Source of the DNA: Malacoraja senta | Lineage: Eukaryota | Direction of reading: 5' to 3' | Assembly: GCA_038087875.1 (NCBI GenBank) | Contig: CM075989.1 | Location: forward strand, 19,036,001-19,100,000 | DNA: 64,000 bases | Shown: positions 21 to 63,030 of the stretch, one piece after another | How positions within the stretch are numbered: the first letter of the stretch is position 1 | Layout: each line of letters opens with the position of its first letter | Translations under genes and position numbers: made by a program | The notes under the pieces: model-generated | Told to the model about the DNA's origin: nothing | Databases searched by the model: none | The model's input: the letters and a program-made list of their open reading frames with translations, nothing else

Positions 21-495
21 TGGGCCTACCCCACTTAGGCGATTTTTTCGGCGACTGTCATAGTCGTAGCAGGTCGCCGAAAAACCGGCGACTGGACTCC
101 CCAGTCGATGTCAAGCTACGGCAAGCTACCAACAACCGGCGACCCATTAGGTCGTCCACCTATGACCACATCTACGACAACCCACGTCCACCCTGTTGGC
201 AACAACTGAAAACAATTCAGTTGCCTGTACCTGTCGCCGGTTGACGTAGGTAGTCGCCAATAGAATTCACCGAAGTCAGCACCAGCAACAACCTACATCA
301 CAAGACGACAACCTACGACAGCACCTACGTCAGGAGAAATCAAGCTACACTCATTGGCGTCAAGTCAACTGTCGCCGAAAAGATTTGAACATTTTAAAAT
401 CCAGCGGCGACCAGAAAAAACGCTACGATTCTTTGGGCGACTGAGGAGACTACTCACGACCATACTGGTGACACCCCAGCGACCATGTGGCGCAC
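21..495. mobile_element. Truncated Harbinger-like MITE of a related family
   Basis: TAA followed by TGGGCCTACCCCACTT, resembling the other TIRs, and CpG-rich CTACGAC/GGCGAC internal motifs. No right TIR found. Confidence 0.55.
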
Positions 496-1403: not shown

Positions 1404-1513
1404 AGGTAGAAAAAAATGCTGGAGAAACTCAGCGGGTGCAGCAGCATCTATGGAGCGAAGGAAATAGGCAACTTTTCGGGCCGAAACCCTTCTTCAGTCT
1501 GAAGAAGGGTTTC
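1404..1513 (-). mobile_element. PLE-tail derivative (young subfamily), antisense arm plus start of the sense core
   Basis: Reverse complement of the 58890-58985 tail, then TCTGAAGAAGGGTTTC. Confidence 0.8.
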
Positions 1514-5449: not shown

Positions 5450-8400
5450 TTAAAATTACTGGAATCACATCTGGAAAACAATTTCTATTTGAAAGGGAAT
5501 TGGATAAACTTTTGTTTTGTAGCCAGCAGAATTTGTTTGCTGACTCAACATACTAACTATATTCTATTGCCGCAATTTCACTTTAGTTAGTCACTAGACA
5601 AAGAGTTTGACTTCAATGAGCCTGACTGGGGAGTCAGAGTCTGAAGAAGGGTCTTGACCCGAAACATCACCCATTCCTTCTCTCCAGAGATGCTGCCTGA
5701 CCCGCGGAGTTACTCCAGCTTTTTGTGTCTACCACAGTCCCAACAACATGTGTTTGACCATGTAGACACAAGGAACTGCAGATGCTGATTTGCAACAAAA
5801 AAAGACTGTGCTGGAGTAATAGCGGGTCAGGCAGCATCTCTGAACCTGGACAAACATTGCCTATCCATATTCTCCAAAGATAATGCCTGACCTATTGAGT
5901 TATTCTAGCACTTTGTAGCTTTAAAAGTTTGATCATGACTCCTGGCAGTTCCTCTGTGTAAATTGAAAGCTCCCTTTCCAGTTGCTCATTTCCCCTCTCA
6001 TCACAATGATGTGCTGAAGGGTAGGTTAATTGGCCGTTGTAAATTATGTGTAGATAATGAGAATCAGAGTAATAGTAGAAAAAATGGTTACATTGGAAAG
6101 TGGCGTATGAAATTTATGGTACTGTTCTGAGAGTTGGCACAGACTTAATAAAGCAAAAGGCTTATATTAAAGAAAATACAATTATGAAATCTGACCACTT
6201 TTCAGAAATATACAGTAATGCTCCAAATGATTCAATACAAAAGATATGATGTGTGTAAGTATTAAGCAGTGTTAAATTATGATCTTACCCTTGATTTGAG
6301 ACAAGAGCCATTGAGAACAAATGGCAGTCAGACTGCCATTAGTTTCTGACCAACTTGGAATGGAACACTACATCCCCAACTGAATTTTGGTTAAATATAA
6401 TTAAAATACTGACAACACCAGCAGATCCAGTCAGAGCAGAAGCTTAAAAATGATCATTTGCAGTAATATGCACCCAAATAGCAGTGCTCTCTTTGGATCA
6501 GTGCAAAGTTGAATCCCCCAATCTTCTAAACTATGGTATAATGGGGGCTCTCTCCCCTCTCACCAGCTGCCGCTTCTTTCTGTCGGCGTGGCTTTGTCCA
6601 TTCCCTGCTCCAGAACGCAACTGCAGGGGATGAGAAGGCAACGGAATGGACAAAAAGAGATGAAGAAGGCAGCCGTGGAGCGAGAGGCGGACAAAGCTAA
6701 GAAGTGGTCACTGGTGAGAGGGGAGAGAGCCCCGTGGTGACCAAACACGGCCTGACGTAAGCTGCAACAACAGCCGCATCAACTGGTGAAGGGCTCGCTG
6801 GTGCAGACCAGTGGCATCAGCACCTCGTATTAAGGTGAAACAACACAAAGTGCTGGAGTAACTCAGCAGACTGAGTCAGTCTGAAGAAGGGTCCCGATTT
6901 CCATGTTCTCCAGAGATGCTGCCTGACCCACTGAGTTACTCCAGCACCTTGTGTTCTTTTGTGTATTAGATCAGCATCTGCAGTTCTTTGTGTCATGGAC
7001 AATCGGCAATGATGGACGCCATTTTCTCCCTCCTCACCACCACCCCCCCCCCCCCATGGTCCATTATAAGGAGGGTTTACTGCATTGCAAACTTAGTCCT
7101 ATAGAATCACACATCTCAGCCCCGTGCATTAATTCCACTAAAAATTAAAATAAGCAAATATACACATTGCTGATTTTAGGAATAGAGATTCAAAGTCTCC
7201 AAAAACAAGCATTTTAAATTAATAAGTTGCATTGATTTCAGTTTTTCTTTTAATGGGTTCAGCACACACAGCTGCAGCCCACCACTAAATGTTGTGCATG
7301 GTTGAATGCCAAATTTTAAAGATAAATCACGTTGATGATTACCATGTGATTTTTTAAATCCTAATGGTTCAGATTAAATTGCAAATTCCCTTGAAGGCTA
7401 AAACTGCTGCGAATTGTTAGGAATGGTATACCTCTTCCAAATTATTCATAGTTATTTAAGCAGATTCAGTAATGGAAGTTGCAAGTCCACGATATGTCAG
7501 ACACAGGCAGATACAGAAGAGAGAGCTGATACTTAGTTACTGCAGATCAACACTTACAACCACATTCTTGTGCTGATACTTTGTTCATATCTATCAAGGC
7601 ACTCATCATAAAGTGTTTGGAGAATCTTATCAGCAATTCATTATTATTGACTATCAGAAACATAGTTTGGAACATCAGAAACACAGAGGATTTTAAACAA
7701 AAAAAGCAGGGAGAAAAACGGAATATGGCCTTTTAAACACAGCAATTGAAACAACCCTAATTTCCAAATGGACACACAAAAGACTGCAGATGCTGGAATC
7801 TTGTGTAAGAAACAAAGTACTGGAGGAAATCGGTGATGCAGCATCTGTGGAGGGATTGGACAGACGAGGTTTCTTCACAAGTCTGAAGAAAGGGGCCCGA
7901 CCCGAAGTGTCATCAGTCCATTTCCCTCCACAGATGTTGCCTGACTGGCTGAGTTCCTCCTGTACCTTGTTTTTTTTTGCTCAACTTCCTAATTCTTTGC
8001 AATTACAGCCTGGCTACTTGACCCATGACTGACAGGGCCCAACTATGTATGTATGTTTTATAAAGTCTGGGTTTAGGTTTGGATGAAAGGGCCCGACTGG
8101 TCTGAGTCACCTAACCCAGGTCAGCGTGATTTGTTGAAATATCACTACGTGTCCGCAGTTACTAATTATTAGCAAAGCACATGCAGAAAATGAAGTCACT
8201 TCTGCCCTAGATCATGAAGGATATGATTAAAAACATTAATTACTCAGACTCTGGTTTAGGTTTATTGTTACATGTACTAAACTATAGTGAAAAGCTTTGT
8301 TTTGCACGCTAACCAATCAAATCAGATAATACTACACATAAATATAATCAAGGCAAACTCAAGTACAATAAATAGAGCTAAGAAAAAGATACAAAGTGCT

Positions 8401-16694: not shown

Positions 16695-17394
16695 TGAATG
16701 TCCTCCAAATGTATGTTTTTCCTCCACAAGCACTGTAATCAATTGTTGCTTTTCCCAACGTTCCTCTAGCTTTTGCCTCAGATCGGGGTCAATGCGGCCC
16801 CAGTCAGCGTTGGCAGTATTTATATTTGGACAGTCAGCTGAAGCACAACACACAGTAAGGGTCAAATACAAGTGTTTAAATGCCAAGCTCACTCTGCCAG
16901 ACTGAATGCGCAATTAAGTTGCAGTTGGCAGCAATAGTGATACAGTGCAGAAGCAGGCCTTTTGGCCCAACTCGTCTTTGCCAACCAAGATACCCCATCT
17001 AAGCTAGTCCCTTTTGCCCACACCTGGCACATATTCCTAGATCCATGCACCTGTTGTTACTGTACATGCCTCAACTACCTACACCGACAGCTCATTTGAC
17101 ATATCCATCACTCTGTGCGAAAAAGTTGCCCCTCTGGTTCCACTTATATTTTTCCCCTTTCATTTTAAACCTATGCCCTCTGGTCTGCAGTTCCCTTATA
17201 TTGGGGAAAGACTCTGAGCATTCACCTTATCTATTCCCCTCATAATGTTATACACCTCCATAAGATCACCCCTCAGCCTCCTACACTCCAAGGAATAAAG
17301 TCCTGGCAACATCATCGTGAATCTTCTCTGCACTCTTTCCAGCTTTTGGCACCCTTCCTATTGCAGAGTGATTAAAACCAATAAGGTTTTATTG

Positions 17395-17630
17395 TGTAGG
17401 AAGGAACTGCAGATGTTGGTTTACACCGAAGATAGACACAAAATGCCAGAATAACTCAACTGTCCAGGCATCATCTCTGGATAGCAGGAATATGTGACGT
17501 TTCGGGTCGAGACCGAGACCTTCTTAAGACTGAGAGTCAGGGGAGAGGGAGACTAGAGATGTGGAAGGGTACAAAGAGCATGTCAGGTGTGAAAACGACA
17601 GATCAAAGCAGACGATGCTCAAGGAAATGT
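17395..17630 (-). mobile_element. PLE 3'-end fragment flanked by a ~75-bp direct repeat
   Basis: TGTAGGAAGGAACTGCAGATG...GACGTTTCGGGTCGAGACC; flanking repeat at 17320-17394 and 17640-17716. Confidence 0.75.
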
Positions 17631-18430: not shown

Positions 18431-19043
18431 AACATTGCTGGAACGAGTTATTGTGTAGCAATAGCAAGCAACTGCAGATGCTGCTTTGCACCGAAGATAG
18501 ACACAAAATCCTTCTCTCCACAGATGCTTTTCCCGTGACTTTCAGTCTGAAGAAGGGTCTCGACCCGAAACCTCACCCATTCCTTCTCTCCAGAGATGCT
18601 GCCTGTCCCGCTGAGTTACTCCAGCACTTTGCGCTTTTTGTAGATTAGAAAAAAATCTAGTTTTTGCTTTGATCGTCAAATTTATTTTTCACAATTCAAA
18701 GAAATGGTCTTTAACCTAAAACATTAACTCAGTTTCTCTTCCTACTGATGCAGTCTGACGTACTAAGTATTTCAAAATTTGTTGTCATTACTTCTTATTA
18801 TTTTTCATAAACTCTTTACTTTCCCTATTTCCCTTTTGTTTGCACGTACATCTTCCAGGCTCCCTGCTACATTAAGTCCTTGGTGTTTGACATATGTCCC
18901 TTCCTGCCTTCTTCCCTCTGTGAACCATGTTACATGGCTCTAGGTACAGTATTTATTTGTAGAAATGTTTACCCTGAAGTCCTGAATCTCCTTCTGTGCT
19001 TTCCACTGCAATTTACTTTCAAGTAGTTCACCTTCCCACTTTT

Positions 19044-23715: not shown

Positions 23716-23805
23716 GAAACAAAAAGACACGCTGATGCAGAACACAGCAGTTGCTAGAAATCGGAAATAAAAGAGGATGCTGGAAATATTTACTAGATCA
23801 ACTAT

Positions 23806-28043: not shown

Positions 28044-28243
28044 NNNNNNNNNNNNNNNNNNNNNNNNNNNNNNNNNNNNNNNNNNNNNNNNNNNNNNNNN
28101 NNNNNNNNNNNNNNNNNNNNNNNNNNNNNNNNNNNNNNNNNNNNNNNNNNNNNNNNNNNNNNNNNNNNNNNNNNNNNNNNNNNNNNNNNNNNNNNNNNNN
28201 NNNNNNNNNNNNNNNNNNNNNNNNNNNNNNNNNNNNNNNNNNN
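28044..28243. other. Assembly gap (200 N)
   Basis: Run of exactly 200 N, a placeholder size. Confidence 1.
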
Positions 28244-29322: not shown

Positions 29323-30008
29323 TGAAATTAGTTTAAGAAACTAATTAGAGTGTTAATTCTTGTTTTGGTTTTATGTGCGTGAAGCTGTTGAACATATTGA
29401 TGACGTAACATTCCTATGATTCTTCTCAAGAAAGAAAACCTATTTATCTCTTCTGAGTGTCAACATGCTATCAAAAATGTAGGTGAATCAAGTTAGGTCA
29501 GCCTGATATGTTTCTATATTTAGCTCTACGGTGTAGAACCCGAGAATCACCCATCCCTGCCAAGAGTAAACCTACCCATTCCATCTCTTACCATCACCGG
29601 TGCCATCACTGTTCTTGATGTGCTCTCCAGCTTCTGCAACAGCTTCTTTCCAACAAACATCACTTTTGAACACAGCACAACACTAAACTCAGCAAAGATA
29701 GACACAAAATGCTGGAGTAACTCAGCGGGACAGGCAGCATCTCTGGAGAGAAGGAATTACTTCAGCATTTTTTGTCTATCTTCGATTTAAGCCAGCATCT
29801 GCAGTTCTTTCCTACACACTATACTCCACACTAACCTCAGCAACTTCGATCTTCTATGGACTTTGCTTTGGTTGCACTACGGATTTGGTTTTGCACTATC
29901 ATGGTCTGGTTACCTTGTATTACTGATTATTAATTATTTGTATTATTGATTGTTGTATATTTATTTAGTATTATTCTGTTAATGGGCCTGTAAAGCTGCA
30001 GTAAGTAA

Positions 30009-32650: not shown

Positions 32651-32847
32651 TGGTAGACAAAAGTGCTGGAGAAACGCAGCGGGTGCAGCAGCATCTATGG
32701 AGCAAAGAAATTAGGCTATTAGGATATAGGCTATTTAGAAATAGGAAATAGCCTATTTCCTTCGCTCCATAGATGCTGCTGCACCCGCTGAGTTTCTCCA
32801 GCACTTTTGTCTACCTTCGATTTTCCAGCATCTGCAGTTCCTTCTTA
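32651..32847 (+). mobile_element. Fold-back PLE-tail derivative nested in an HE1 SINE
   Basis: Inverted arms; perfect 17-bp TSD AACATAGAACTAGTGTG at 32634-32650 and 32848-32864 duplicating SINE sequence. Confidence 0.9.
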
Positions 32848-33672
32848 AACATAGAACTAGTGTGAATGGGTGATCAATGTTCAGCATGAATTTGGTGAAC
32901 TGAAGGCCTGTTTCCATGCTCTATCTCTAAACTGAACATCCCACCTGATTCTCCCATCTCTACTGTTACACCCCACAGGGTTTACTAATGAAGGACAATG
33001 GGCCAAGTAATATCCTTTCTTTGATTCCATCTTATAGATACGTCCAGAGTGTCATCATTGTTGTCTATGAAATCAGTCCCATTTTCCTTTTCTTTACCCT
33101 TTCTCATATGTTTGAACGATCGGTGGCATCGTGGCCAGATACCTGTGTTCAAACCTGACCTTGGGTGCATTCTGTGTGGAGTTTGCATGTTCTCCCTGTG
33201 ACTACATGTATTTCATCCGGGTGTTCTGGCTTCCTCCCACCGGGGAAAGGGAAAAGAGAGATATAGAACAAATGAATGAAAGATATGCAAAAAAGTAACG
33301 ATGATCAAGGAAACGGTCCATTGTTGGCTGTGGGCTACGTGAAAACGAGTTGTACAAAGAATGAAACTCGCTGAGTTACTGAAGCTTTTTGTGTCTATCT
33401 TCGGTGTAAACCAGCATCTGCGGTTCCTTCCTACACCTTTTGTCCACCTATCACTTGCCAGACTTTACCCCACCACCATCCCCACCTCTCTTTTCCAGTT
33501 TTCTCCCCTACTCCATCAGTGTGAAGCAGGATCCCAGACCAAGGCGTTGTCTGTCCATTCCCTCCACTGATGCTGCCTGACCTGCTGAGTTCCTCCAGCA
33601 CTTTGTGTTTTGTTCAAGATTCCAGCACTTGCAGTTCCTTGCGTCTCCGCGCCACCAGCCCAATGGCCGCTG

Positions 33673-33960
33673 CAGCGCCCCCTGGCGTCGCGGAGTACTT
33701 CACCGGCGTTCCCCTCCAGTCCCGGAGTACTTCACCAGCGCCCCCTGGCGTCGCGGAGTACTTCACCGGCGTTCCCCTCCAGTCCCGGAGTACTTCACCA
33801 GCGCCCCCTGGCGTCGCGGAGTACTTCACCGGCGTTCCCCTCCAGTCCCGGAGTACTTCACCAGCGCCCCCTGGCGTCGAGGAGTACTTCACCGGCGTTC
33901 CCCTCCAGTCCCGGAGTACTTCACCAGCGCCCCCCCTCCGCGTCGAGGAGTACTTCACCC
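33673..33960. repeat. 63-bp CpG-rich minisatellite, 4 full units plus a partial fifth
   Basis: Unit CAGCGCCCCCTGGCGTCGCGGAGTACTTCACCGGCGTTCCCCTCCAGTCCCGGAGTACTTCAC starts at 33673, 33736, 33799, 33862 and 33925. Confidence 0.97.
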
Positions 33961-34057: not shown

Positions 34058-34115
34058 ATGGCGGACATGACAGACTTGTTCGGCAGCGACGCGGACAGCG
34101 AGCCAGAGCAGAAAG
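34058..34115 (+). CDS. LEO1: LEO1 coding exon 1 (MADMTDLFGSDADSEPEQK)
   Basis: ATG in AACATGG context inside a CpG island. The peptide matches the vertebrate LEO1 N-terminus (human MADMEDLFGSDADSE). Donor G|GTAGC, phase 1. Confidence 0.95.
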
Positions 34116-34462
34116 GTAGCGCCGCCCTGCGAAGGGCTGACCACTGGTGGGTGGGTGGGTGGCTGGGTGCCCGCGGGGGTGGGCGAGCGGGCGGGAGCCC
34201 GGCCCAGGGACCGAGCCTAGTCACCCGGGTCAATCGACGACCCGGCTCAATCCCGGGGCCAGGGCCAGGGCCGCTGGTTTGTGACTTCACTGTAGAGAAA
34301 CAAGAGCATCTTCAAAATGTATGTCTGCAGAGCAGTGCAGCGAGCAAGACAGATGCATGATTATATGGGATATTGTTAGGGCCTAGAATATACTGAGGAG
34401 AACGTCTTGGTAGTACAAAATTAATTGATCACAGCTGGAATATATATATTTATTGTCACCAA

Positions 34463-34649
34463 GGTAGACAAAAGTGCTGGAGAAACTCAGCGGGTGCAGC
34501 AGCATCTATGGAGCGAAGGAAATAGGTAACGTTTCGGCCCGAAACGTTGCCTATTTCCTTCGCTCCATAGATGCTGCTGCACCCGCTGAGTTTTTCCAGC
34601 ACTTTTGTCCACCTTCGATTTTCCAGCATCTGCAGTTCCTTCTTAAACA
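34463..34649 (+). mobile_element. Fold-back PLE-tail derivative in LEO1 intron 1
   Basis: About 77-bp inverted arms centred on 34538. The sense arm matches the tail at 58907-59020. TSD ATTT(A/C)TTGTCACCAA at 34448-34462 and 34650-34664. Confidence 0.9.
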
Positions 34650-35790: not shown

Positions 35791-35989
35791 AGGTTTTTCC
35801 ACACAGAGGGTAGTGGGTATATGGAATGAGCTGCCAGAGGAAATAGTTTAGGCAGCTATAATAATAGCAGTTAAAATACACTTTTGACAGGTGCGTGGAT
35901 AGGAACAGTTTAGTGGTATATGGGCCAAAGTTGGGAAAATGGGGCTAACCTAGATGGAGCATTTGGTCGACATGGATCAGTTATGCCGA

Positions 35990-36087
35990 GTCTGAAGAAG
36001 GGTCTCGACACAAAACGTCGCCCATTCCTTCTCTCTATAGATGCTGCTTCACCCGCTGAGTTTCTCCAGCATTTTTTAAATCTATTT
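35990..36087 (+). mobile_element. PLE-tail derivative inserted in a CR1 tail
   Basis: Starts GTCTGAAGAAGGGTCTCGAC; 13-bp TSD TCAGTTATGCCGA at 35977-35989 and 36088-36100. Confidence 0.85.
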
Positions 36088-38670: not shown

Positions 38671-39372
38671 ATTTTGATTCCAGATCTGGATCGGGCTCGG
38701 ATTCTGAGCAGGAGCAAGCGGCCTCGGAAAGCAATCCTTCCAGGAGCGAGAGTGAAAGGGAAGACAGAAATGAGGATGAAGATGAGAGAGAAGCTACTAA
38801 ACCTAGCAATAAAGAGCTGTTTGGGGAGGACAGCGAGGACGAAGGCTCGAGACACAATGGAAGTGAAGACATGTCCGAAAACCAGTCCATCGCTTTGGGG
38901 CAGTCTGACCAGGAGGACGTTCAGCATTCGGAAACAGAGCAACACAGTGGCTCAGAAGAGCATCAGTTTGAAAATGAAGATGACGACAATGTTTCTGATG
39001 CAGAGAGCATGCATTCGGACGCTGGCAGCGTTCGCTCCGACGCCGGTAGCGTGCACTCGGAGGCCGCAAGCGTTCACTCAGAAGCTGGAAGCGTGCACTC
39101 GGATGTCGCAAGTATCCGATCCCACTCCGAAGTTGGTAACGTCCATTCAGACGCTGGCAGTGTCCACTCCCGATCCGATGCCATGAGCAACCACTCACAC
39201 TCTGATGCTGCCAGTAACCAGTCGGACGCTGAGGAATCTGGAAAGGAGGTGCACTCTGAGAATGAGAAGTGGGAGCGGGCTTCCAGGAGTGATCAATCAG
39301 ACGAAGAGGAAAAAACTCACCATTCAGAAGAGGAGCAGCAACTGTCAGATGAAGAGCAAGAACGTAAATCAG
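38671..39372 (+). CDS. LEO1: LEO1 coding exon 2 (acidic Ser/Asp/Glu-rich region with KPSNKELFGEDSEDEG and heptapeptide repeats)
   Basis: Acceptor tttgcag; in frame with ORF 38652..39416; PSNKELFG-DSEDEG motif as in LEO1. Donor TCAG|GTATTC, phase 1. Confidence 0.93.
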
Positions 39373-39954
39373 GTATTCAAAAGCAAAAAATAAAAAACTT
39401 CAGATGCTGGAAATAGAAAATAAAAACAAAAAAGTGTGTACTCACAATGTCACACAGCATCCGTGTAATGAAGAAAGAGTTAACGTTTCAGGTCACTTGA
39501 AGGGTCATTCACCTGAAATGCCAGCTTTGTTGCTCTCTTCACAGATGCTGCCTGCACTGTTTTATATCTGGAGCCTTTGCTGGTTTTCTGACACAAATTA
39601 GGTGATTTATAAATAAAACAAATCTATGAGGCAAGACCTTTGCTTCCAATGGCAAAATAATATAAATTATTTCCCCAACTATAGAATTCACTTCTTTCAC
39701 TTGCATGAAGGAATATAATTTGCTTTAATCAGCTATCAAAATTTTAAGTGGATAAAACTTGACTGCATTTTGTCATTTATAAACTCGTATTGAATTGGTC
39801 TCTCAAAATGTGATTGCAAGCAGCCTTGCATTTGTGATCGCTTTTGGTATTAAACTTTATTCCTGTGATTTTCCGTGAATTAAGCGAGCATTGATAGCGA
39901 GAGGTTCCTAAGTCTGATGCTAATCTTTTAAATCATTCTCAATTTCAGTTGCAG

Positions 39955-43609: not shown

Positions 43610-44715
43610 TGATTATCTCAAACTGCTGTAAAAATGTTGCATAACTTATGAAATTGTTAAAGAGTGTTTATCTTTATCAGAAGTATTTGTTGGGAATGAA
43701 CTCACTTTTTAAAAACTCTATGCCTGTTCTTGCAGTGGAAAATATGTTATTAAAATTGATCTTAAAAAAGATAATTCAAATTCTCTCTTTGTAATCAGAA
43801 CAAAGTTATGTTGTAACTTTGAGTTTAGCTGTGAGAATTGACACAGATTTCAGTTGCCTTACTTCAACCCAGTTAATAAATGAAATCAACATCTTTACTC
43901 ACTATTGCTTTCCTAATGATAACCAAAAGGAGACCCACCCCTTCTCCTCCCTCTCTCCCCTGCCCACCTCACCCCAATATGTACCAATCGCTTGTACCAC
44001 CCCAGTTGCCCTCCTCTTTTCTCCCCTATACGCTCATTTCCCATCTCCTTGTTGCCTTTCACTCACCTTTTACCCCTCCCCATGTTCCCTTCCACCCGTA
44101 GCCTTCCCTCGGGCTTTATATTACACTCCTTGTCTCTTTATCTGATACCCTTTTATGTCCTTTTCACCTCTAGCCTTTGTCATTTACTCCACTCATCTGT
44201 CAATCACCCCCTCTTACCTCTATCTACCTATCACTTGCCAAGCTTTACCCCACTTCCACCTCCCTTTTCCAGCTTTTTGCCCCCTACTCCATCAGTCGAA
44301 AGAAAGGTCCAGAACACAAAATGTTATCTGTCCATTCCTCCATAGATGATACCTGACCCACTGAGTTCCTCCAGCACTTTGTGCTTTGCTGAAGATTCCA
44401 GCATCACAAGTTTCTCCTCTTTGTTTCACCACAGTCATTTGGGGTTTCTTTCTGGAATATAATTTTTTTTAAATGGTCATAGAAGCTCATAAACCATACT
44501 TGATGTTCAAATTGTTTGAAAATGTCATCTTAGTCCTACTTTATTTTAACCTTTCCACTTCATAAATAGCCAGCCGTCATTTTGGAATATTTTATAGCCA
44601 CTGATGCCCTCTAGTGCTTGCCTAATGTCCACTCTTCATGTATGAACTGAAATAGCTTGTGTGGACAAGATAGGCACAAGAACCATAACCAAGTCTATTC
44701 TCAACTCTGCTTCTC

Positions 44716-46686: not shown

Positions 46687-47771
46687 GTCAGACTGTGGAC
46701 TGTGACTCTGCACGCTGCCTCTACACTTCACGCTGCCTCGGGAAAGCAGCCGACATAATAATATACCTTTCCCAACCCGCTGTTTCTTAATGCATTGCAT
46801 CATTTTCCATGTACTTTGTACCTCGATGTGTTTGTGTCAGATTACTGCTGTAAATCGCTTCCCAATTTCTGAATCTGTATCTCATTGTTTTCGATGTTTA
46901 ATTTTGGTGAATTCTTTTTACATAGAGAATTTGGTAATACTTTCAGCTTCAAAGGAATCAGATAACAAGTATAACTTTTTTTTAAACTCTCAAAATTAGG
47001 GGCCTGTGGAAATTGCAGGAATATGTGCCTAATTTAACTTTGTTGGTAGGTTATTAATGGTGAGATATATTTGATAATTTTTGTTACGGTAGGAATCCTA
47101 CCTCTACTTTCATGAGGAGCTTAATGTTAATAATAATAATACATTAATAGGAGACTAGTGATTATTTAGGGAACTAAGCATTTTTATTGCTGAGAAACAC
47201 GTTAAGATGATACAACAGTTTTTAAAAGTTGAAATGACAATTTAAAAACCCAATTGAGGCTAAAGGTGGCAAGTATTGGAGAAAATGCACATAATCCTGA
47301 TTTTTCAACGCAGTTTTTAGGTAGTCGTGTGGTAATGGCAGCCGAGAGTTTACAATCCTGTCCTTGCCATTTTTCTCATTGACATCCAGCCCATGATAAT
47401 TTTAGAACAAAGTAGCTAGAAACCCACATTAAATATTGAACCAGATGGCTGTGCTCTATAATTGGGTATAATATGTAATATTATGATGTAATATTTTTCC
47501 AATAGGTGGCATGCACAGCACTGTAGGAAACCGAGTCAACAAACTGGTAACCTTTAGAGGTGAAAGATGCAGGCAGACAGAAAATAAGCTTTGCTGGGCC
47601 AGGAAGATCATTGCTGACAACACTTTCTAAACCTCTGTGTGCCACTTCTCCTCTCCACCCGAAAATTCCACTAATGCACAATTTTTGTCGTGGTTCCACA
47701 GATTTCTTGCTCCCATGACCATTCTATGAGTGGTTTCTCAACAGTAGCTTACAGATGTTAGTACAATGAGA

Positions 47772-48013
47772 ATAGACACAAAATGCTGGAGTAACTCAAC
47801 GGGTCAGGTAGCATCTCTGGAGAAAACAAATAGGTTTTTATTTCAGGTCGAGACCCTTCTTCGGTCTACTAGACTACTAAGGTCTGGAGAAGGGCCTGAC
47901 CCAAAATGTCACCTATTCCTTTTCTCCAGAGATGCTGCCTGACCCACTGAGTTATTCCAATATTTTGTGCCTATCTTCAGTGTAAACCAGCGTCTGCAAT
48001 TCCTTCCTACACA
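47772..48013 (+). mobile_element. Fold-back PLE-tail derivative (second subfamily) in LEO1 intron 10
   Basis: Antisense arm plus sense arm; TSD TTA(G/T)TACAATGAGA at 47758-47771 and 48014-48027. Confidence 0.85.
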
Positions 48014-50893: not shown

Positions 50894-51085
50894 ATGGTAG
50901 ACAAAAGTGCTGGAGAAACTCAGCGGGTGCGGCAGCATCAATGGAGCGAAGGAAATAGGCAACGTTTCGGCCCGAAACCTTGCCTATTTTCTTCGCTCCA
51001 TAGATGCTGCCGCACCCGCTGAGTTTCTCCAGCACTTTTGTCTACCTTCGATTTTCCAACATCTGCAGTTCCTTCTTAAAAACAA
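50894..51085 (+). mobile_element. Fold-back PLE-tail derivative in LEO1 intron 11
   Basis: Same architecture as the 34463 copy; perfect 15-bp TSD AGTGTTGAAGCTTTG at 50879-50893 and 51086-51100. Confidence 0.9.
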
Positions 51086-51607: not shown

Positions 51608-52637
51608 TTGCAGGGTTTTAATGATTTGTCCTTGGATGTTGAAGTAAAAGTTGTGACTAAACACAATTTTTAGAAGTCAGGGCTGCCAATGTAAAAGTAG
51701 TCATGGATCAACGTTGCTTTCCATTACTTAGTAGATCACAGTTCACATTTAGTTAAACATATACTGAATAAATAGAAGCCGGGGAAGAGCATATTGGCCT
51801 AGGGTGTGGTCTGCCATTTAGTGAAATCAGCTTGATCTGATCTTGGTCTCGATTCCACTTTCTGCCTAGTCCTTAAGTGGTTGTGATTGTTGTTCATCCA
51901 TCTGTTATAGATACGTAAATGTGGCAAGGAACTGCAGGTGCTGCTTTACAGAAAATGCCTGAGTAATTCAGCGGGTCCGGTAGCATCTCTGGAAAACATG
52001 GATGGGTACCATGGGACGTCTTGGATTGGGACCCTTCCTCAGACTGATGGTGGTTGGGGGGGGGGGAGGAAGCTGGGCGAGATGAGGGACGGGACAAAGC
52101 CTGATGAGGTGAAGGAGGGTGGGGTGGTGGTATGGAAAGCAGTAGGTTGGACAAAGACTAGAAAGGGAAAGACAAAAACAGTGAGATAAGGACATAAGAA
52201 GTGCAAATTGTAAAGCCAGAGGAATTAATATAGGTGGAAGGGGAGAAATGGGTGCAAGTCCAGGTGGGACACAGGGAAGAGGGGAGGGAGGGGGTTATTT
52301 GTAGGTTAGTTACATAAAGTTGTAGAATTCAATGTACATGGAGAAACAAATGGGACAATTCTTCCTGTTTTCAAATTACTGGCTTATTTTACAGGGGAAA
52401 GATTTCTCTTTCCCCCATAGTTTTCTATGGCTTCCTCCCATTTAGCTTGACTCAACTGTTTTTCAACGTCTTCTTATTCCCTTCAGTGCTTCCAATTCTT
52501 GTCATTCATTCTTATACTGTCTCCTCAGTTTGATAAAAAACTAAGTATAAAATAGTACATGTTGGTAGAAAATTAATAATTATTTTGAGGTGTAGGTATA
52601 AAAAAATGAAGTGTAGCCTAAAGAGATCACAAGTTTG

Positions 52638-52898
52638 AGGTGCATCAGTGGAACAGCGGTAATGTTGCTGCCTTACAGCGACAGGTTAGATCCTGACTAT
52701 GGGTGCTGTCTGTACGTTCTCCCAGTGATCATGTGGGTTTCCTCCCACACTCAAGACGTCCAGGTTTGTAGGTTAATTGGCCTTTGTAAGTTATTAAATT
52801 GTCCCTGGTGTTTAGGATAGCGTTAGTGCAAGGGGTGATTCCTGGTCGGCGCTGACTTGGTGGGCCATAGGGCTTGTCACCAAGCTGTATCTCTAAGG
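52638..52898 (+). mobile_element. HE1 SINE
   Basis: Diverged copy directly followed by a CR1 fragment. Confidence 0.78.
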
Positions 52899-52904
52899 TA
52901 CAAA

Positions 52905-53278
52905 ACTTACATAATTCTTAAGGGGTTGGACAGGCTAGATGCAGGAAGATTGTTCCCGATGTTGGGGAAGTCCAGAACAAGGAGTCACAGTTTAAGGATA
53001 AAGGGGAAATCCTTTAGGACCGAGATGAGAAAAACATTTTTCACACAGAGAGTGGTGAATCTCTGGAACTCTCTGCCACAGAAGGTAGTTGAGGCCAGTT
53101 CATTGGCTATATTTAAGAGGGAGTTAGATGTGGCCCTTGTGGCTAAAGGGATCAGGGGGTATGGAGAGAAGGCAGGTACAGGATATTGAGTTGGATGATC
53201 AGCCATGATCATATTGAATGGCGGTGCAGGCTCGAAGGGCCGAATGGCCTACTCCTGCACCTATTTTCTATGTTTCTA
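52905..53278 (+). mobile_element. Young CR1 3' fragment, near-identical to the 23806 copy
   Basis: Same peptide and 3' UTR with only scattered substitutions. Confidence 0.9.
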
Positions 53279-55219
53279 AAAGTTATTGGATTTGAAACTT
53301 AAAATGTCCAGCCATCGGCAGGAAAAATAGAAAGTGAATGGAATCCAATTTGACATGTGTGAAAATGATGCAGTGCCTCACCTTGCTTGCAACTCAAGTA
53401 CAATGTTCATAATGCAGAGAGGAATCTGCAGAAATGCCTTTCATTTGTGAAAATAGATAATTAAATAAGAACTCTTATTCAGGTGACGTGATTGAAATAT
53501 CTTACTATAGCACAAAATATTAACCAACGTTCATAAGATACTAATTTTTCTGTTCAATTTAAATCTCTCACTTGGTGACTAAGTGTCATTGATACATTGT
53601 CTATTTATATCTGCAGTTCATGAATTAAACAAAAGCTAGTGATTTTGTTCAACTACAGTTTTCAAATTACAATGTTAACTGAAAGTTCTGTTTATTCAGG
53701 GCTAGACTGGTATCGCTTCATGCAATGAGTTGAGTGTTTTTAGTGCAACATGGCATCCCTTTATCTGCATATTTATTGGGGTTGTTTTCCACCTTCCGAT
53801 GTTGGCGATGTAGATTTAAAGCAGTTTTGAGAAAAATGGCCAGCCTTAAATGTCTAAATGAAAATGTGAATTCCTATGTAATGGAGAATGGAATGCAGGT
53901 CAGTGTGACCTAGAGTGTCAGTGTCACGTTGATATCAGTCTGACGAAGGATCTTGACTTAAAACGCCGTCTGTCACTGCCTGACCTGCTGATTTATAGAT
54001 TCATACCATCATACAGCACGGAAACAGGCCCTTCAGCCCAACTTGCCGATGCTGACCAAGATGCCCCATTATTTGGAGTATTGTGGGCAATTCTGGTCGC
54101 CTCATTTACAGGAAGGTGTGTTTTAAATTAATTAATCTTCTACTTCACCCAACATTCCCACTGATCTCCCAATGTGAACACTTTTCAGTACAATTCTCAA
54201 ACACTATTAGGGCGGATGATTACATTGTCTCTATCTTTTCGGAATTATATTAAAGACCTTGAAAGATGACTAGTTAAAAACTACTATTGTAGTACAATAC
54301 ATAGAAAGTATCAAACATCAGATGAAACCATCTTTATTGCATTTTAGTAGAAAGACACTAACAGTAACAAATAATTGTCACATGAACGTAATACCGTTGA
54401 ACTAATTTTATGACGCATTTATTTCTTTCTTTACAAATCCCTGATCAATCATTTGTGGAATGTGACAATTATATATGCCTGAGATTCAGTGATTGAGGTG
54501 ACAATTGATCCTTTCCTGAGCTCATGCTATTTGTATGTGCCTTGATTTCGTAGTGAATGTCAGTACTGGTAAGAGACCCCATTCTCTTGCTTATTGCTCT
54601 ACAACAAGGACAAAAGGATTAAAAAAAAATTATGCTTATACCCATGTTTTAAATTGACTATTTTTCTGAGGTGGATAAAAAGCACAGCACAACAGATTGT
54701 ACCGTGCCAGTAGACCCAACTACTGATGGCACAGTTGTGGACTTTAAACATGTGTGAGAATGTATTAGCAGGGAAGCACAGGATCTGCATTCCACTGGCA
54801 TATGAAGTGGGGCATGGTAACACACTAACAAACTGCGGCATCATGCCCATTAATGTACAAAGATACGCTGTTCTGCAGGTCACATTCACCACCCTCATGA
54901 CTGCATTCCTCAGCTATCTCCGACCTTGAAATCTTTTGAGTTCATTAGCTCCTCTTTAAAAATAGATTGGGATAAATATGGGCAAGCTTCATGTGATCTG
55001 TGGAACGCATGCGGGTATTTGTGCAGTGGCTGTGGAGAACCTTCCCTATGAGAGTTTACTTGATGTGGAGCAGGATGAGATTACTTTTATTGGCAAGTCT
55101 CTTGACCCAGGAAATAATTAGCTTTCAAGGAAGTGATGGGCCAAATGGCTCGCTTCTGTGTCAAAAATTTCCACGAGTCCCTATAGTAAATTGGAGTCTA
55201 GTCACGAGAATTAGGCTGT

Positions 55220-55247
55220 CTGATGAAGGGTCTCGACCCGAAACGTC
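55220..55247 (+). ncRNA. Minimal hammerhead core at the 5' end of a PLE-tail derivative (55218-55320)
   Basis: CUGAUGA-A-GGGU(CUCG)ACCC-GAAA-CGUC, with a GUC triplet. Confidence 0.6.
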
Positions 55248-55809
55248 ACCTATTCCTTTTCTCCGGAGATGCTGCCTGATCCGCTGAGTTACTCCAGCAT
55301 TTTGTGTCTTATCTTCCGTATTAAGTTGTCATATGTACTGACGATGGAATAATGAAATTCGTACTTGCTGCAGCTTAGCAGGCAATAACACACACAGATA
55401 TAATAATTCATAATATTTTTAAAAATTCTAACTGTAATACCAGGTAACCATAATATTGCAAAAATTGAAGTCCATATTGCACACAAAGACATAGTCCGTA
55501 GAAGATGATAGTTGCTGAGGTAGTGAATGTTGTGCTCTGTTCAAGAGAATGATGGTTGCTGGGGGAATCTGTTCTTGAACTTGGAGGTCAGGGTTTTCAA
55601 GATCCCGTACCTTCTTGCTGATGATAGGAGTGAGATAAGAGCCTGGCCAGGGTGGTGTTGGTCTTTGATGATAATACTGGCTTCCCTTTTTGAGGCGGTG
55701 CCTCATTCCATTATTAATCTTACGCAATGTTACAAAAAACATTTTGGTAATTTTCCCATTGTTTGTGGGATTGGGTACAATATTTATTACATTACAATAA
55801 TTATTACAC

Positions 55810-56110
55810 TTTAGTTTAGTTTAGAGCTACAGCGTGGAAACAGGCCCTTCGGCCCACCGAGTCCGCACCAACCAGTGATCCCCGCACATTAACACTATCC
55901 TACACTCGCTAGGGATAATTTATATTTACACCAAGCCAATTAACCTACAAACCTGTACGTCTTTGGAGTGTGAGAGGAAACCGAAGATCTCGGCGAAAAC
56001 CCACGTGGCCACCGGGACAATGTAAAACTCCGTACAAACAAGCACCCATAATCGGGATCGAACCCAGGTCTCCGGCGCTGTAAGGCAGGCGCTCTACCTC
56101 TGTGCCACCT
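55810..56110 (-). mobile_element. HE1 SINE
   Basis: Full-length, little-diverged copy. Confidence 0.88.
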
Positions 56111-57146: not shown

Positions 57147-57705
57147 AGAGGAAACTAGAGGCCCACGTGGTCACAGGGAGAAAGTGAAAACTGCACAGAG
57201 ACAGCACCTGAAGTCAGGATCGAACCTGGGTATCTGGCGCTGGAGGCAGCAGCTCTACCAGCTGTGCTACTGTGCTATCCTTATTACAAAAGATGAACAA
57301 CAGTTCCTGACCATAAAGCTGAGTGGAGCCAATGCTGCAGCCTCTCCAACTGGCAGCACAGTATTGACACTTGCTGTTTTATAATAACTGACGTCCCATG
57401 ATGTTGCAGGGCTTTTTATCAGCTTTCTGGAATTGTGTTCCTCATAACTTAGCGCACATGGTTACGAGTCAACTGCAGATTATATTACGTGGGACTGCAG
57501 AATTTAAATTGTTGTGGAATTGCTCTGTGCCATTTCCTCAATCACCCAGTGAAATCTGCCCTTCAGTGGCCTTGAGAATCAGACGTGTATGGACTGCAGC
57601 AGTAGTTTGCTGTGGTGCCTCCAGGTGGCACTCTTGCATGCATTTCTCTCGACACTGCATCTTCCTGTATAATGCAATGCTGCTCAGATGCAATCAAGAG
57701 TATCA

Positions 57706-59020
57706 CGCTACATCGATGACTGTTTTGGTGCCACCTCCTGCACCCACACACAACTGACTGACTTCATCCGCTTCACCACCAACTTCCATCCGGCAGTCAA
57801 ATACACCTGGACCATTTCCGACACTTCCCTATCATTCCTTGACCTCACTATCTTCATCGCAGGTGATAGACTCCTTACCGACATCCACTACAAACCTACC
57901 GACTCCCATGGCTATCTGGACTGCACTTCTTCCCACCCTGCTTCCTGTAAGGACTCCATCCCCCACTCCCAATTCCTCCATCTACGCCGCATCTGCTCCC
58001 AGGATGAGGCGTTCCACACCAGGGCATCCGAAATGTCCTCATTCTTCAGGGAACGGGGGTTCCCCTCCTCCACCATAGATGAGGCTCGCACCAGGGTCTC
58101 TGCCATACCCCGCAACACTGCTCTCTCTCCCCATCCCCCCACTCACAACAAGGGCAGAGTCCCCCTAGTCCTCACCTTTCACCCCACCAGCCGTCACATA
58201 CAAGAAGTGATCCTCCGTCAGTTTCGCCACCTCCAACGTGACCCCACCACTCGCCACATCTTCCCATTTCCCCCCATGTCTGCCTTCCGCAAAGACCGCT
58301 CCCTCCGTAACTCCCTTGTCAATTCTTCCCTTCCCTCCCGTACCACCCCCTCCGCGGGTACTTTCCCTTGCAACCGCAAGAGATGCAACACTTGTCCCTT
58401 CACCTCCCCCCTCGACTCCATTCAAGGACCTAAGCAGTCGTTCCAGGTGCGACAGAGGTTCACCTGCATCTCCTCCAACCTCATCTATTGCATCCGCTGC
58501 TCTAGATGCCAGCTGATCTACATCGGTGAGACCAAGCGGAGGCTTGGCGATTGTTTCTCCGAACACCTCCGGTCGGTCCGCAATAACCAACCTGACCTCC
58601 CGGTGGCTCAGCACTTCAACTCCCCCTCCCATTCCGTATCTGACCTCTCTGTCCTGGGTCTCCTCCATGGCCACAGCGAGCAACACCGGAAATTGGAGGA
58701 AATGCACCTCATATTCCGCTTGGGCAGTCTACATCCTGGTGGCCTGAACGTTGAATTCTCCCAATTCTGCTAGCCCTGGCTGTCCCCTCCCCTTCATCAG
58801 CCATCTGGTTGTCTCCTCCCCTCCCCCAGCCCTCGGGCTCCTCCTCCTCCTTTTCCTTTTTTCCTTTCTTCTCCCCACCCCCTATCAGTCTGAAGAAGGG
58901 TTTCGGCCCGAAACGTTACCTATTTCCTTCGCTCCATAGATGCTGCTGCACCCGCTGAGTTTCTCCAGCATTTTTGTGTACCTTCGATTTTCCAGCATCT
59001 GCAGTTCCTTCTTTAACACA
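57706..59020 (+). mobile_element. 5'-truncated Penelope-like retroelement (Neptune-like): RT C-terminal half, Cys linker, GIY-YIG endonuclease and 3' UTR
   Basis: ORF 57688..58773 has the RT motif RYIDD, SFLDL and YKPTDSHGYL motifs, a CNRKRCNTC linker, and LIYCIRCSRCQLIYIGETKR...EH...HFN...GLN (GIY-YIG). A pyrimidine-rich spacer follows, then the tail shared with many short elements. Confidence 0.93.
58890..58917 (+). ncRNA. Minimal hammerhead ribozyme core in the PLE 3' UTR
   Basis: CUGAAGA-A-GGGU(UUCG)GCCC-GAAA-CGUU: both catalytic boxes, a 4-bp stem II, and a palindromic AACGUU stem-III remnant as described for PLE-associated minimal HHRs. Stem I is weak. Confidence 0.65.
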
Positions 59021-59202
59021 TACTTATTGGTTACTTAATTCTCTTTAAAAAAATGTAAGGTGAAGGGGAAAAGATTTAATAGGAATCTGAGGGGTAACAT
59101 TTTCACACAAAGGATGGTGGATGTAAGGAACAAGCTGCCAGATGAGGTAGTTGAGGCTGGGACTATCCCAACTTTTAAGAAACAGTTAGACAGGTACATG
59201 GA

Positions 59203-59427
59203 CAGACACAAAATGCTGGAATAACTCAGCGGGACAGGCAGCATCTCTGGAGAGAAGGAATGGGAGACGTTTCGGGTCGAGACCCTTCTTCAGACTGATC
59301 GAGAGGAGGAGAACGTCTTCAAAGTATACATATCTCTTGAGGAGATTTCGCAGTGGAGCAGACGAAATGTGTAAGAAAGAACTGCAGATGTTGGTTTAAA
59401 CCAGCATCTGCAGTTCTTTCCGACACA
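59203..59427 (-). mobile_element. PLE-tail derivative (intact core on the - strand at 59266-59293) nested in a CR1 3' fragment
   Basis: GACGTTTCGGGTCGAGACCCTTCTTCAG, plus a terminal palindrome centred on TTTAAA (~59368-59427). CR1 sequence resumes after it. Confidence 0.8.
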
Positions 59428-61523: not shown

Positions 61524-61620
61524 ATTCCTCACCGAGACCATCATTGTCTATTTTTCACAACATTATGAACAGCTGATATCTAGCACTGTTGGCAGAGGTG
61601 AGTCGAGTTAGTCCGCCCAT

Positions 61621-61738
61621 CTGAAGAAGGGTCTCGACCCGAAACGTCACCCATTCCTTCTATCCAGAGGAGCTGCCTGTCCCGCATTTTGTGACTATCT
61701 TCAGTTTAAACCAGCATCTGCAGTTCCTTCTTACACAC
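61621..61738 (+). mobile_element. PLE-tail-derived short element with an intact hammerhead core (61621-61648)
   Basis: CTGAAGAAGGGTCTCGACCCGAAACGTC...GCAGTTCCTTCTTACAC; flanked by AGTCCG(C/T)CCATC at 61610-61621 and 61739-61750. Confidence 0.85.
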
Positions 61739-62556
61739 AGTCCGTCCATCGATGCTTTGATCATTTGTAGATTAAAGGAGAGCAACTCAGAGGCAAAAGA
61801 GAGACACAAGACCCTGCAGATACTGGAATCTTAACCAAAACACAAAGTACTGGAGGAAATCAGCTGGTCAGGCAGTATCTGTGGAGCAACTTCTTCAGAC
61901 TGATGGGTTGTTGATTGCTTCATCAATCTGAAGAAGGATCCCAAGCCAACCATTTCCCACAACATATGCTGCCTGGCCCTGTATTCCTCCAACCTTTGCT
62001 TTTGGCTCAGGAGCAAAATAAGTCATTTCTGAGAAACACAACAACAAATTGCAGGAAATGAACAGTGGGATCATCAAATTTTGATAAAGTAAAAATGTAC
62101 TCAAATGTTTAAATATATGCCTCTGTATACCACGTGAATATTGAATTACACCATCACAATCTGGAATGTGACATAATCGACTAATTTAATTTCTAATCGT
62201 TGAAGACCTACTTTCCTTTCTGAGGGGCCAATTATTCTTTGTATCTTCCCTTGAGTTATTAAGCTCAACAAAATGCAACAAGGATGCAGTCAGTTGCACT
62301 ATCAATCTGCATTATTTGTCCATGGATTAAATATGTTACAAGCTGCATCTGAAAGAGTTTAGGTTAAAGCACAAAATAAAAAGACTAAGGTTCAAATGCT
62401 GGAGGTGGAAAAGAAACTACAAAACTAATATTCAGTAAGTTCTGATGATAGGTCTTTACGTTGGTTCAACATCACGTTGCCTTTCTATTTTCCATTTAGT
62501 GAATAATTACTGCTCTCTGTAAGTCTCTTTCTTTGTCTGAAGCAATCCCTTACGAC

Positions 62557-63030
62557 CAGTGGAACAGCTGGTAGATCTGCTGCCTCAGACTGCTGGAGAC
62601 CCAGGTTCCATCCTGTCCTCGGGTGCTGACTGTAGCGTTTGCACATTCTTTCTGTGACCGCGTGGGTTTCCTCTGGGTGCTCCGGTTTCCTCAAAATAAT
62701 TTTCAGAGACCAGAGCAAATCTTTGACCGTCGAGAATTAATTCTTTTTTTTCAAGCTTATCAATCAGTCCTGGTTTATATGTTGTTGTTGAACTAACTGC
62801 ACACTAACTGTATCTGTGCGGAGTTTTGTACATTCTCCTTGTGACTGTGTGGGTTTTCTCCAGGTGCTCCGGTTTCCTCCCACATTCCAAAGACGTGCAG
62901 GTTTGTAGGGTCATTGATTTCTGTAAATTGCCCCTAGTGTGTAGGATAGAACTAGTGTATGGGTGATTGGTTAGCATGGACTCTGGGCCGGAGGACATGT
63001 TTCTACGCTGTATCTCTAAACTGAACTAAA
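62557..63030 (+). mobile_element. Two partial HE1 SINE copies (62557-62692 and 62805-63030)
   Basis: Head plus V-domain, then V-domain plus tail. Confidence 0.78.

What the first reader, a model, noticed from the sequence alone, without database searches (positions are those of the whole stretch)
57706..59020. Penelope-like element with a minimal hammerhead ribozyme, and about 20 tail-derived non-autonomous copies in 64 kb
Seen: an uninterrupted ~355-codon RT/GIY-YIG frame followed by CTGAAGAAGGGTTTCGGCCCGAAACGTT. The same ~130-nt tail recurs on both strands, e.g. 1470, 2730, 4648, 5641, 6881, 7883, 9565, 12436, 17497, 18547, 26998, 27860, 29256, 30642, 35992, 36462, 38100, 47840, 53940, 55220, 59266 and 61621. 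Known: PLEs carry minimal type-I hammerheads (CUGANGA / stem II / GAAA / short palindromic stem III) proposed to act as dimers. Inference: this genome hosts a very high-copy, ribozyme-bearing, SINE- or retrozyme-like family mobilised by a Neptune-type PLE. I cannot tell whether it has been described for this lineage.
Basis: partly seen in the sequence, partly recalled or inferred. Interest (0 to 1): 0.85.

Follow-up and report, generated by a model that had tools for sequence, protein, structure and literature searches.

The report
Ribozyme retrotransposon shedding leader mini-copies
This is a broken copy of a very abundant jumping gene of a shark-or-ray-type genome that carries a predicted self-cutting RNA motif, and its many short copies are likely dead by-products made when copying starts near the front of the element's own RNA and runs off its capped end, so the genome likely preserves a readable record of how this poorly understood class of element copies itself.

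Summary
Observation confirmed. 57706-59019 is a 5'-truncated copy of a very young, very abundant Neptune-type Penelope-like element (PLE) ending in a minimal type-I hammerhead motif. The window holds 47 related arms; only 7 keep an intact core. PLE hammerheads are known, so this is a new member of a known kind. The SINE/retrozyme reading is mostly not supported. Short copies share haplotypes with ORF-linked copies, and older types have their own ORF remnants. In 96 young arms, 3' ends sit at +66 or +101 from the predicted cut (92 of 96), and 46 start 22-34 nt before it, at an initiator-like TCAGT. An extra G precedes that start three times more often than at a control position (OR 3.0, repeated in an older subfamily). 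Best reading: reverse transcription starts inside the 5' leader and runs off the cap, giving 97/132-nt inserts. Two-arm inserts with target duplications use one short and one long end in 32 of 33 cases. Two of 8 small tandem arrays begin at the predicted cut, a hint of cleavage and circle copying in vivo. Ribozyme activity and the start site are untested.

The parts
57706..59019 (+). 5'-truncated copy of a young Neptune-type PLE, ending at the long 3' end (with tail); no target duplication seen
   Evidence: 97.5-98.2% identical over 1277-1318 nt to copies in 16 of 16 fetched loci; flanks
57706..58773 (+). ORF remnant: RT from the catalytic YIDD, thumb, CX4CxxC linker (58369-58395), GIY-YIG endonuclease with CCHH residues (58483-58620); the R of DRFAEH reads C in this copy
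   Evidence: 114 scored genome matches at 95-100% aa identity
58774..58884 (+). 3' UTR ending in a polypyrimidine tract
   Evidence: sequence; shared by long copies
58885..58889 (+). Initiator-like TCAGT; inferred transcription start at A 58887 (position -31)
   Evidence: 5' ends pile up at -22..-34; extra-G excess. Initiator consensus is recalled
58888..58919 (+). Minimal type-I hammerhead motif: 2-bp helix I, CUGAAGA, extra A, 4-bp helix II with UUCG loop, GAAA, palindromic AACGUU; predicted cut between 58917 and 58918
   Evidence: sequence; pair counts; features as listed in PMC4209133; no Rfam hammerhead hit
58918..58983 (+). 5' leader of the next transcript up to the short reverse-transcription start (+66)
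   Evidence: 63 of 96 arms end at +65..+68; tandem copy L033 continues into the ORF start
58984..59019 (+). 35-nt PLE 'tail' up to the long start (+101)
   Evidence: 29 of 96 arms end at +96..+106
34462..34649 (.). Young two-arm palindromic mini joined in helix II; short plus long end; target duplication of about 14 bp
50896..51083 (.). Young two-arm palindromic mini; short plus long end; target duplication of about 15 bp
32652..32851 (.). Young two-arm mini whose arms both begin at +2, next to the predicted cut; short plus long end; target duplication
1405..1513 (-). Young mini, -33 to the short end, with a stub of an inverted arm
59202..59426 (.). Older two-arm insert; minus arm has a jump from +166 (ORF start) to about -34
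29695..29821 (.). Older two-arm mini without ribozyme, short plus long end, target duplication (by eye)
47770..48012 (.). Older two-arm mini with target duplication (by eye)
55218..55311 (+). Older single-arm mini starting at -30, intact core, GUC triplet
35989..36076 (+). Older single-arm mini starting G-AGTCTG
5638..5733 (+). Older mini starting G-AGTCTG, intact core
61620..61739 (+). Older mini starting at -29, intact core, internal deletion, long end
18538..18631 (+). Older copy, intact core
17392..17552 (-). Older copy that keeps part of its own subfamily's 3' UTR (ordinary 5' truncation); similar cases at 2684-2773, 11258-11387, 33488-33640, 44262-44419, 51925-52069

Best explanation
The locus is a 5'-truncated copy of an abundant Neptune-type Penelope-like retrotransposon, and the short copies are likely run-off products of the element's own RNA rather than a separate SINE: transcription likely starts 31 nt before the predicted ribozyme cut, reverse transcription likely starts inside the leader, and the cDNA would end at the cap after 97 or 132 nt. 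Steps. (1) Shown: the terminal repeat is also the leader of a downstream copy. (2) Inferred: a capped transcript begins at A(-31), three bases ahead of the hammerhead core. (3) Inferred from ends and from the Anolis enzyme: the protein nicks both DNA strands about 13-16 bp apart and primes cDNA at +66 on one strand and at +101 on the other. (4) Inferred: on the 5' leader the cDNA ends at the cap and often gains one extra base that reads G; only a second leader at the far end of a read-through or circular RNA gives ORF-bearing inserts. (5) Shown as structure, inferred as mechanism: if both cDNAs survive they are joined head to head, often through the ribozyme's own palindromes, giving MITE-looking hairpins. 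(6) Predicted: the hammerhead is off in naked monomeric RNA and cuts only a small share of templates, as a dimer or with protein help; cut RNAs are occasionally circularised or jumped end to end and copied into tandem arrays. The minis are predicted to be mostly dead on arrival.
For: Ends of 96 young arms chosen only by a +30..+65 motif: 3' ends 63 at +65..68, 29 at +96..106, 4 other; 5' ends 46 at -22..-34, 4 at -35..-59, 26 further upstream, 20 downstream of -22. Genome-wide, 6,816 of 19,101 exact cores extend 10 nt further upstream. Base before A(-31): G 829, A/T 1,199 (41%); control before T(-27): G 161, A/T 701 (19%); OR 3.0, p 2e-32; older subfamily 1,135 to 1,713 (40%). 20 fetched G-copies (17 distinct) have unrelated flanks. 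Direct target duplications in 20 of 44 minis against 3 of 300 mismatched pairs. Two-arm inserts: 32 of 33 with a duplication have one short and one long end, none two alike. Minis and ORF-linked copies share both top haplotypes. Older cores follow their own ORF remnants. Hammerhead fold costs 5-10 kcal/mol against the best fold. Arrays with units +1..+138 (11 units, ending at +102) and +1..+165. Literature: two internal RT starts define the tail, both strands are extended, uncut RNA is the main template, RNA 3' of the starts is required (PMC11167929); transcript starts within the upstream pLTR (PMC2377424).
Against: No RNA 5'-end data. The G excess shows a hard template end but could come from untemplated C addition instead of cap copying; by eye the G is also explained by the target in 3 of the 17 distinct fetched copies and by slippage in 1. 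5' ends spread over 13 positions, not one. The polypyrimidine tract plus CAG at -30 also looks like a splice acceptor, the position of an intron end in D. virilis. G at +1 is commoner in minis (21 of 31) than in long copies (10 of 25), and T7C occurs in 4 of 31 against 0 of 25, so some mini-biased sources are not excluded. Cleavage trace is weak: 5 of 96 arms start at +2..+5; genome-wide non-T before +1 is 596 against 271 and 297 at controls, part of it the GUC allele. Only 2 of 8 short arrays start at +1; 5 have unknown junctions. The 138-nt array has no target duplication and could have grown by unequal crossing-over. The 96 arms all come from the first 9 Mb of one contig.
Confidence: 0.7

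Rival explanations
1. The minis are a self-propagating non-autonomous family (SINE- or retrozyme-like): inserted minis are transcribed from an internal promoter and copied again by the PLE protein.
For: Fixed ends, target duplications and about 0.4-0.6 million arms by extrapolation. PLE promoters are partly internal (PMC2377424). Tandem arrays of 316, 384 and 408 bp with a whole ribozyme per unit exist, and a preprint derives retrozymes from pLTRs. Small allele skews between minis and long copies.
Against: Shared top haplotypes; older types have cognate ORFs; minis lose the first initiator bases and everything 3' of the RT start, which the Anolis protein needs; only 351 exact copies of the leader beyond +108 against about 21,000 of the part before +66; no tRNA head.
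Confidence: 0.12
2. The minis are ordinary 5'-truncated copies from the 3' end of long transcripts; reverse transcriptase stalls at the ribozyme or at the protein-bound pyrimidine tract, with no transcription start there.
For: 5' truncation is the rule for PLEs (PMC8557442; PMC4209133 reads single motifs as truncated PLEs). The pyrimidine tract can pair with GAAGAAGGG, and ends spread from -22 to -34.
Against: That stem would stop the enzyme near -18, not -31; a stall does not predict an extra G at one position; duplications and jumps that begin at -31/-30 point to a template end.
Confidence: 0.12
3. The boundary is a 3' splice site (CAG|TCTGAAG); minis come from spliced or back-spliced RNAs.
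For: Textbook pyrimidine tract and AG; in D. virilis an intron ends at helix I; a good-looking donor lies at +133/+134.
Against: 0 genomic copies of that donor-acceptor junction; no common upstream exon among the minis; many minis keep the AG and follow the target duplication directly.
Confidence: 0.05

Closest known systems
Neptune clade of endonuclease-bearing Penelope-like elements (PMC8557442, passages)
   Same: Single ORF RT then GIY-YIG, DKG motif, CX2-5CxxC linker, CCHH, 5' truncation, partial tandems, inverted arms, 35-nt tail at one end
   Different: ORF about 1,240-1,265 aa (pieced together from overlapping copies) because of a proline-rich insert with 78-bp repeats; exceptional copy number; clade not tested by phylogeny
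Minimal PLE hammerheads (Cervera and de la Pena 2014, PMC4209133; results and discussion read)
   Same: CUGANGA, extra base before G10.1-C11.1, GAAA, palindromic 15.2-16.2, mostly single dispersed motifs
   Different: Helix I only 2 bp (as in D. virilis; 4-5 bp in Schistosoma), helix II 4 bp with a YYCG loop; about 150,000 intact cores by my looser descriptor against about 4,000 and 9,000 in coelacanth and Xenopus; no shark or ray in the parts I read
Poseidon element of Anolis (Frangieh et al. 2024, PMC11167929; main text read)
   Same: Two internal RT starts bounding the tail; both strands extended; uncut RNA the main template
   Different: Other clade; there the ORF starts inside the ribozyme, here at +136; in vitro no strand difference in start site was seen, whereas here each two-arm insert pairs one short with one long start; capped run-off minis not described in the text I read
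Non-LTR retrozymes (PMC7229834, passages; bioRxiv 2026.07.22.740005, parts 1-3 of 5)
   Same: Type-I hammerhead, pLTR origin, 170-400 nt tandem units; arrays of 316, 384, 408 bp here fit; one chondrichthyan already listed with 363-bp families
   Different: The window's copies are monomers or inverted pairs, not tandem units; the 138- and 165-bp arrays have no ribozyme core in the unit

Membership tests
EN+ Penelope-like element | Single ORF with RT followed by GIY-YIG endonuclease | tested here: met
   Frames to 1224 aa; RVT_1 and GIY-YIG hits below curated cut-off; 1716 homologs with the same domains
EN+ Penelope-like element | DKG motif and CCHH with two cysteines inside GIY-YIG | tested here: met
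   Motif positions; definition from PMC8557442
EN+ Penelope-like element | Pseudo-LTR tandems, inverted 5'-truncated arms, 30-40 bp tail at one end, target duplication | tested here: met
   L033 tandem, inverted pairs
EN+ Penelope-like element | RT sister to telomerase RT | not tested
   No tree with named references; PDB profile search found only a weak I-TevI-type match, E 0.41; no structure model
Neptune clade | CX2-5CxxC linker between RT and EN (shared with Nematis) | tested here: met
   CNRKRCNTC at 58369-58395
Neptune clade | Placement in RT phylogeny | not testable with these tools
   No labelled Neptune or Nematis sequences were returned
Minimal type-I hammerhead | Conserved core, G10.1-C11.1, NUH triplet, palindromic stem III | tested here: met
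   Sequence; subfamily-level changes avoid the core: loop -16/-15, U-G/U-A at helix II, U/C at position 17, A/G at +1
Minimal type-I hammerhead | Helix I of 4 bp or more | tested here: not met
   Third pair is A-C in 76 rows; 15% paired. 2 bp as in D. virilis
Minimal type-I hammerhead | Core more conserved than flanks; two-sided covariation | tested here: inconclusive
   Leader is as conserved as the core; RNAalifold on 36 decayed copies gave 0 pairs
Minimal type-I hammerhead | Self-cleavage | not testable with these tools
   Only indirect traces at +1
SINE | Pol III RNA-derived head | tested here: not met
   0 tRNA genes; no Rfam family at gathering score; minis begin at the ribozyme
SINE / non-autonomous family | Own lineage distinct from the autonomous partner | tested here: not met
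   31 minis and 25 long copies share top haplotypes; small sample
Non-LTR retrozyme | Tandem units each with a complete hammerhead | tested here: not met
   Not met in the window; met by at least 3 arrays elsewhere
Non-LTR retrozyme | Abundant circular RNA | not testable with these tools
   Only assembled contigs were available

The most novel reading that the evidence does not exclude
This genome holds a fossil record, in hundreds of thousands of inserts, of the whole Penelope cycle in vivo: a capped start three bases ahead of the ribozyme, strong-stop-like leader cDNAs inserted as minis, an obligate division of labour in which one nick is primed at +66 and the other at +101, and ribozyme-cut leader RNAs that were circularised and rolling-circle copied into arrays, that is, retrozymes caught at birth from a still-young element.
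Probability: 0.4. Interest if true: 0.8.

Novelty: new member of a known kind. Interest (0 to 1): 0.57.

Why it matters
How PLEs integrate and what their hammerheads do in vivo are open questions; the one reconstituted enzyme left both unresolved. If the reading holds, most 'solo' PLE ribozymes in animal genomes are not truncated 3' ends or SINEs but leader run-off products, the start site can be mapped from DNA alone, and the one-short-one-long rule constrains the dimer model. A young element with many long open frames in a vertebrate gives a direct test system. Practical: these minis and hairpins will be mis-annotated as SINEs, MITEs or microRNAs.

Tried and rejected
Rfam: no hammerhead hit; microRNA-family hits on the palindromic minis are all below gathering score. 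PDB by sequence: nothing; by profile one weak match. Back-splice or ORF-skipping splice junction: 0 matches. Consensus folding of 36 copies: 0 pairs, uninformative on decayed copies. Single-strand folds do not give the hammerhead. Expression: no RNA holder listed; four contig sets laid cannot show starts or splicing; none of the 15 joints shown, of 92, came from the three guessed-RNA runs. Junction guesses for three arrays failed: start near -31 for the 275 and 299 units (searches matched other, single loci) and +1 for the 350 unit. No structure model was obtained, so the fold is untested. Earlier findings of this scan: none. Lunse et al. 2017 is not held; known only through a review. Dfam and Repbase could not be searched, so an existing entry is not excluded. 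Paper searches that found no description for sharks or rays, or of capped run-off minis. Supplements: those of PMC11167929 held as text had no hits and its supplementary figures on genomic ends were not seen; those of PMC4209133 and of the preprint (species lists) were not seen and may bear on novelty. Rows dropped before counts: L104 and L125 (overlaps) and L024 (duplicate), where L198/L199 remain one duplicate pair (31 of 32 distinct); L104; 2 indel rows in the haplotype count; 35 of 152 rows that do not cover the core.

Full report
Numbering: +1 is window 58918, the base after GUU; -1 is 58917.

1. Observation. The frame, the motif and the repeats are there. The open frame runs 57673-58773 and homology to other copies starts at 57706, at the RT catalytic motif.

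2. The element. The window lies in a 1.94-Gb genome. The protein gives 114,574 first-look candidates; the 114 scored are 95-100% identical, with open frames up to 1224 aa. The closest named proteins are from rays and sharks, 65-73% identical. Long copies carry DKG, YIDD, a CX4CxxC linker and a CCHH-type GIY-YIG, which marks Neptune or Nematis (PMC8557442, passages); Neptune is inferred from the vertebrate host. A natural tandem, L033, shows that the sequence after the ribozyme is the leader of the next copy, with an in-frame ATG at +136. Exact cores number 19,101 (young type) and 18,728 (older type). Sixty evenly placed 10-kb stretches (599,400 bases) give 131-183 arms and 46 intact cores, about 0.4-0.6 million and 150,000 genome-wide by extrapolation.

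3. The ribozyme motif. It has the features listed for minimal PLE hammerheads (PMC4209133, results and discussion read). Across 117 aligned copies the frequent alternative alleles fall in loop II, at a U-G/U-A pair, at position 17 (U/C) and at +1 (A/G, both pair with U); none is in the core. The leader is equally conserved, so excess conservation is not shown. Helix I is only 2 bp. Forcing the hammerhead costs 5-10 kcal/mol, so it is predicted to be off as a naked monomer. Rfam does not detect it. Activity is untested.

4. What the short copies are. I took the first 100 listed places of a +30..+65 motif (21,087 in all), fetched 96 arms and mapped their ends. 3' ends: 63 at +65..68, 29 at +96..106, 4 other. 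These match the two internal RT starts that bound the PLE tail (PMC11167929, main text). Contigs of other organisms' runs end at the same two places. 5' ends: 46 at -22..-34, 4 at -35..-59, 26 beyond -60, 5 at -17..-21, 4 at -1..-16, 5 at +1..+6, 6 later. Random truncation does not give this step. The step sits on TCAGT, which resembles an initiator (recalled consensus) with A at -31. If the RNA is capped there, copying the cap should add a G. G precedes A(-31) in 829 of 2,028 non-C cases against 161 of 862 at a control position, OR 3.0; base composition predicts 27%. The older type repeats it, 1,135 of 2,848. Twenty fetched G-copies (17 distinct) have unrelated flanks, so this is no subfamily allele; by eye the G is untemplated in some, target-templated in 3 and due to slippage in 1. 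Untemplated C addition at any hard end remains possible. 20 of 44 minis have direct target duplications of 12-22 bp against 3 of 300 controls. Minis and ORF-linked copies share their two commonest haplotypes, with small allele skews, and older core types sit behind their own ORF remnants in at least 8 of the 60 random loci. A splice junction to the AG at -30 was not found.

5. Two-arm inserts. Of 39 head-to-head pairs, 33 have a target duplication; 32 of those pair a short with a long end and none has two alike; of the 6 without, 3 do, 1 has two short ends. This holds from 100-bp hairpins to 6-kb inserts, and includes three palindromes in the window. The literature notes a tail at one end; the strictness is what these counts add. 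Arms often join at the ribozyme's palindromes.

6. Traces of cleavage. Weak but present. 5 of 96 arms start at +2..+5. Non-T before +1 occurs 596 times against 271 before -1 and 297 before +12; about a third of the 100 listed +1 cases have C, partly the GUC allele (hand count). An independent search for the rare leader beyond +108 (351 copies, first 100 listed) shows 8 arrays or dimers with periods under 400 bp. Two start at the cut: +1..+138 (11 units, ending at +102, no target duplication) and +1..+165 (4 units, one base ambiguous, ending at +80). One (384 bp) holds the whole ribozyme, as do arrays of 316 and 408 bp. Five have unknown junctions; three guesses failed. Rolling-circle copying fits the 138-bp array; unequal crossing-over is not excluded.

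7. Comparison. PLE hammerheads, their dispersal as single motifs and their presence in fish Neptune elements are published (PMC4209133). Retrozymes derived from pLTRs, including in one chondrichthyan, are in a 2026 preprint (parts 1-3 of 5 read). A start inside the pLTR is known for D. virilis (PMC2377424, passages and introduction). I also saw passages of PMC3846280, PMC7229834, PMC6765202 and PMC6155905. Searches found no account of this family in sharks or rays nor of capped run-off minis; most subscription journals, Dfam and Repbase were outside reach.

8. Verdict. Real, a new member of a known kind, and not the SINE-like family proposed. The interest lies in the mechanism that the copies record. 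Confidence 0.7 in the run-off model; interest 0.57.

Noticed in passing
G000:C1:27817337-27818880 (L207, L210), G000:C1:381271240-381271900 (L208, L211), L209: Tandem arrays and a dimer whose units start at the predicted ribozyme cut (+1..+138, +1..+165, +1..+61)
   Followed up: partly
G000:C1:28902458-28907168, C17:9746130-9747965, C2688:131303-135637: Arrays of 384, 316 and 408 bp, 99% identical to the young element, each unit with a whole ribozyme: retrozyme-like; DNA not fetched
   Followed up: partly
L022:4576-4803: 78-bp (26-aa) repeats inside a long proline-rich insert lengthen the ORF; repeat number varies between copies
   Followed up: no
window 58940 onward; L033:3613-3740: An upstream AUG at +23 opens a short frame that overlaps the main AUG at +136 (read by eye)
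   Followed up: no
window 34462-34649, 50896-51083, 32652-32851: Near-perfect 190-nt hairpins that draw sub-threshold microRNA hits; possible small-RNA sources
   Followed up: partly
window 34058-34100 and 38643-39416 (+): Exons of a host gene that looks like LEO1 (name recalled; no Pfam hit); several minis lie in or near it
   Followed up: no
window about 33650-33950: 60-bp tandem repeat just upstream of that gene's start, open in several frames
   Followed up: no
window 19588-20748 (-): Fragments of another LINE; weak zf-RVT hit, E 4e-4
   Followed up: no
window 52839-53280, 23771-24073, 55820-56110, 62560-62700: Other abundant repeats: LINE 3' ends and tRNA-type SINE-like copies (labels recalled); several minis are inserted into such repeats
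   Followed up: no
window about 28040-28240: Assembly gap of 200 N
   Followed up: no
L189, L196, L203, L108, L176, L182, L206: Short duplications of the first 10-38 bases in front of the -31/-30 start, as if the enzyme re-primed after reaching the template end
   Followed up: partly
L033:3000-4300 against runs X2, X3, X4: Contigs from three other coded organisms carry the family with ends at the same places
   Followed up: partly
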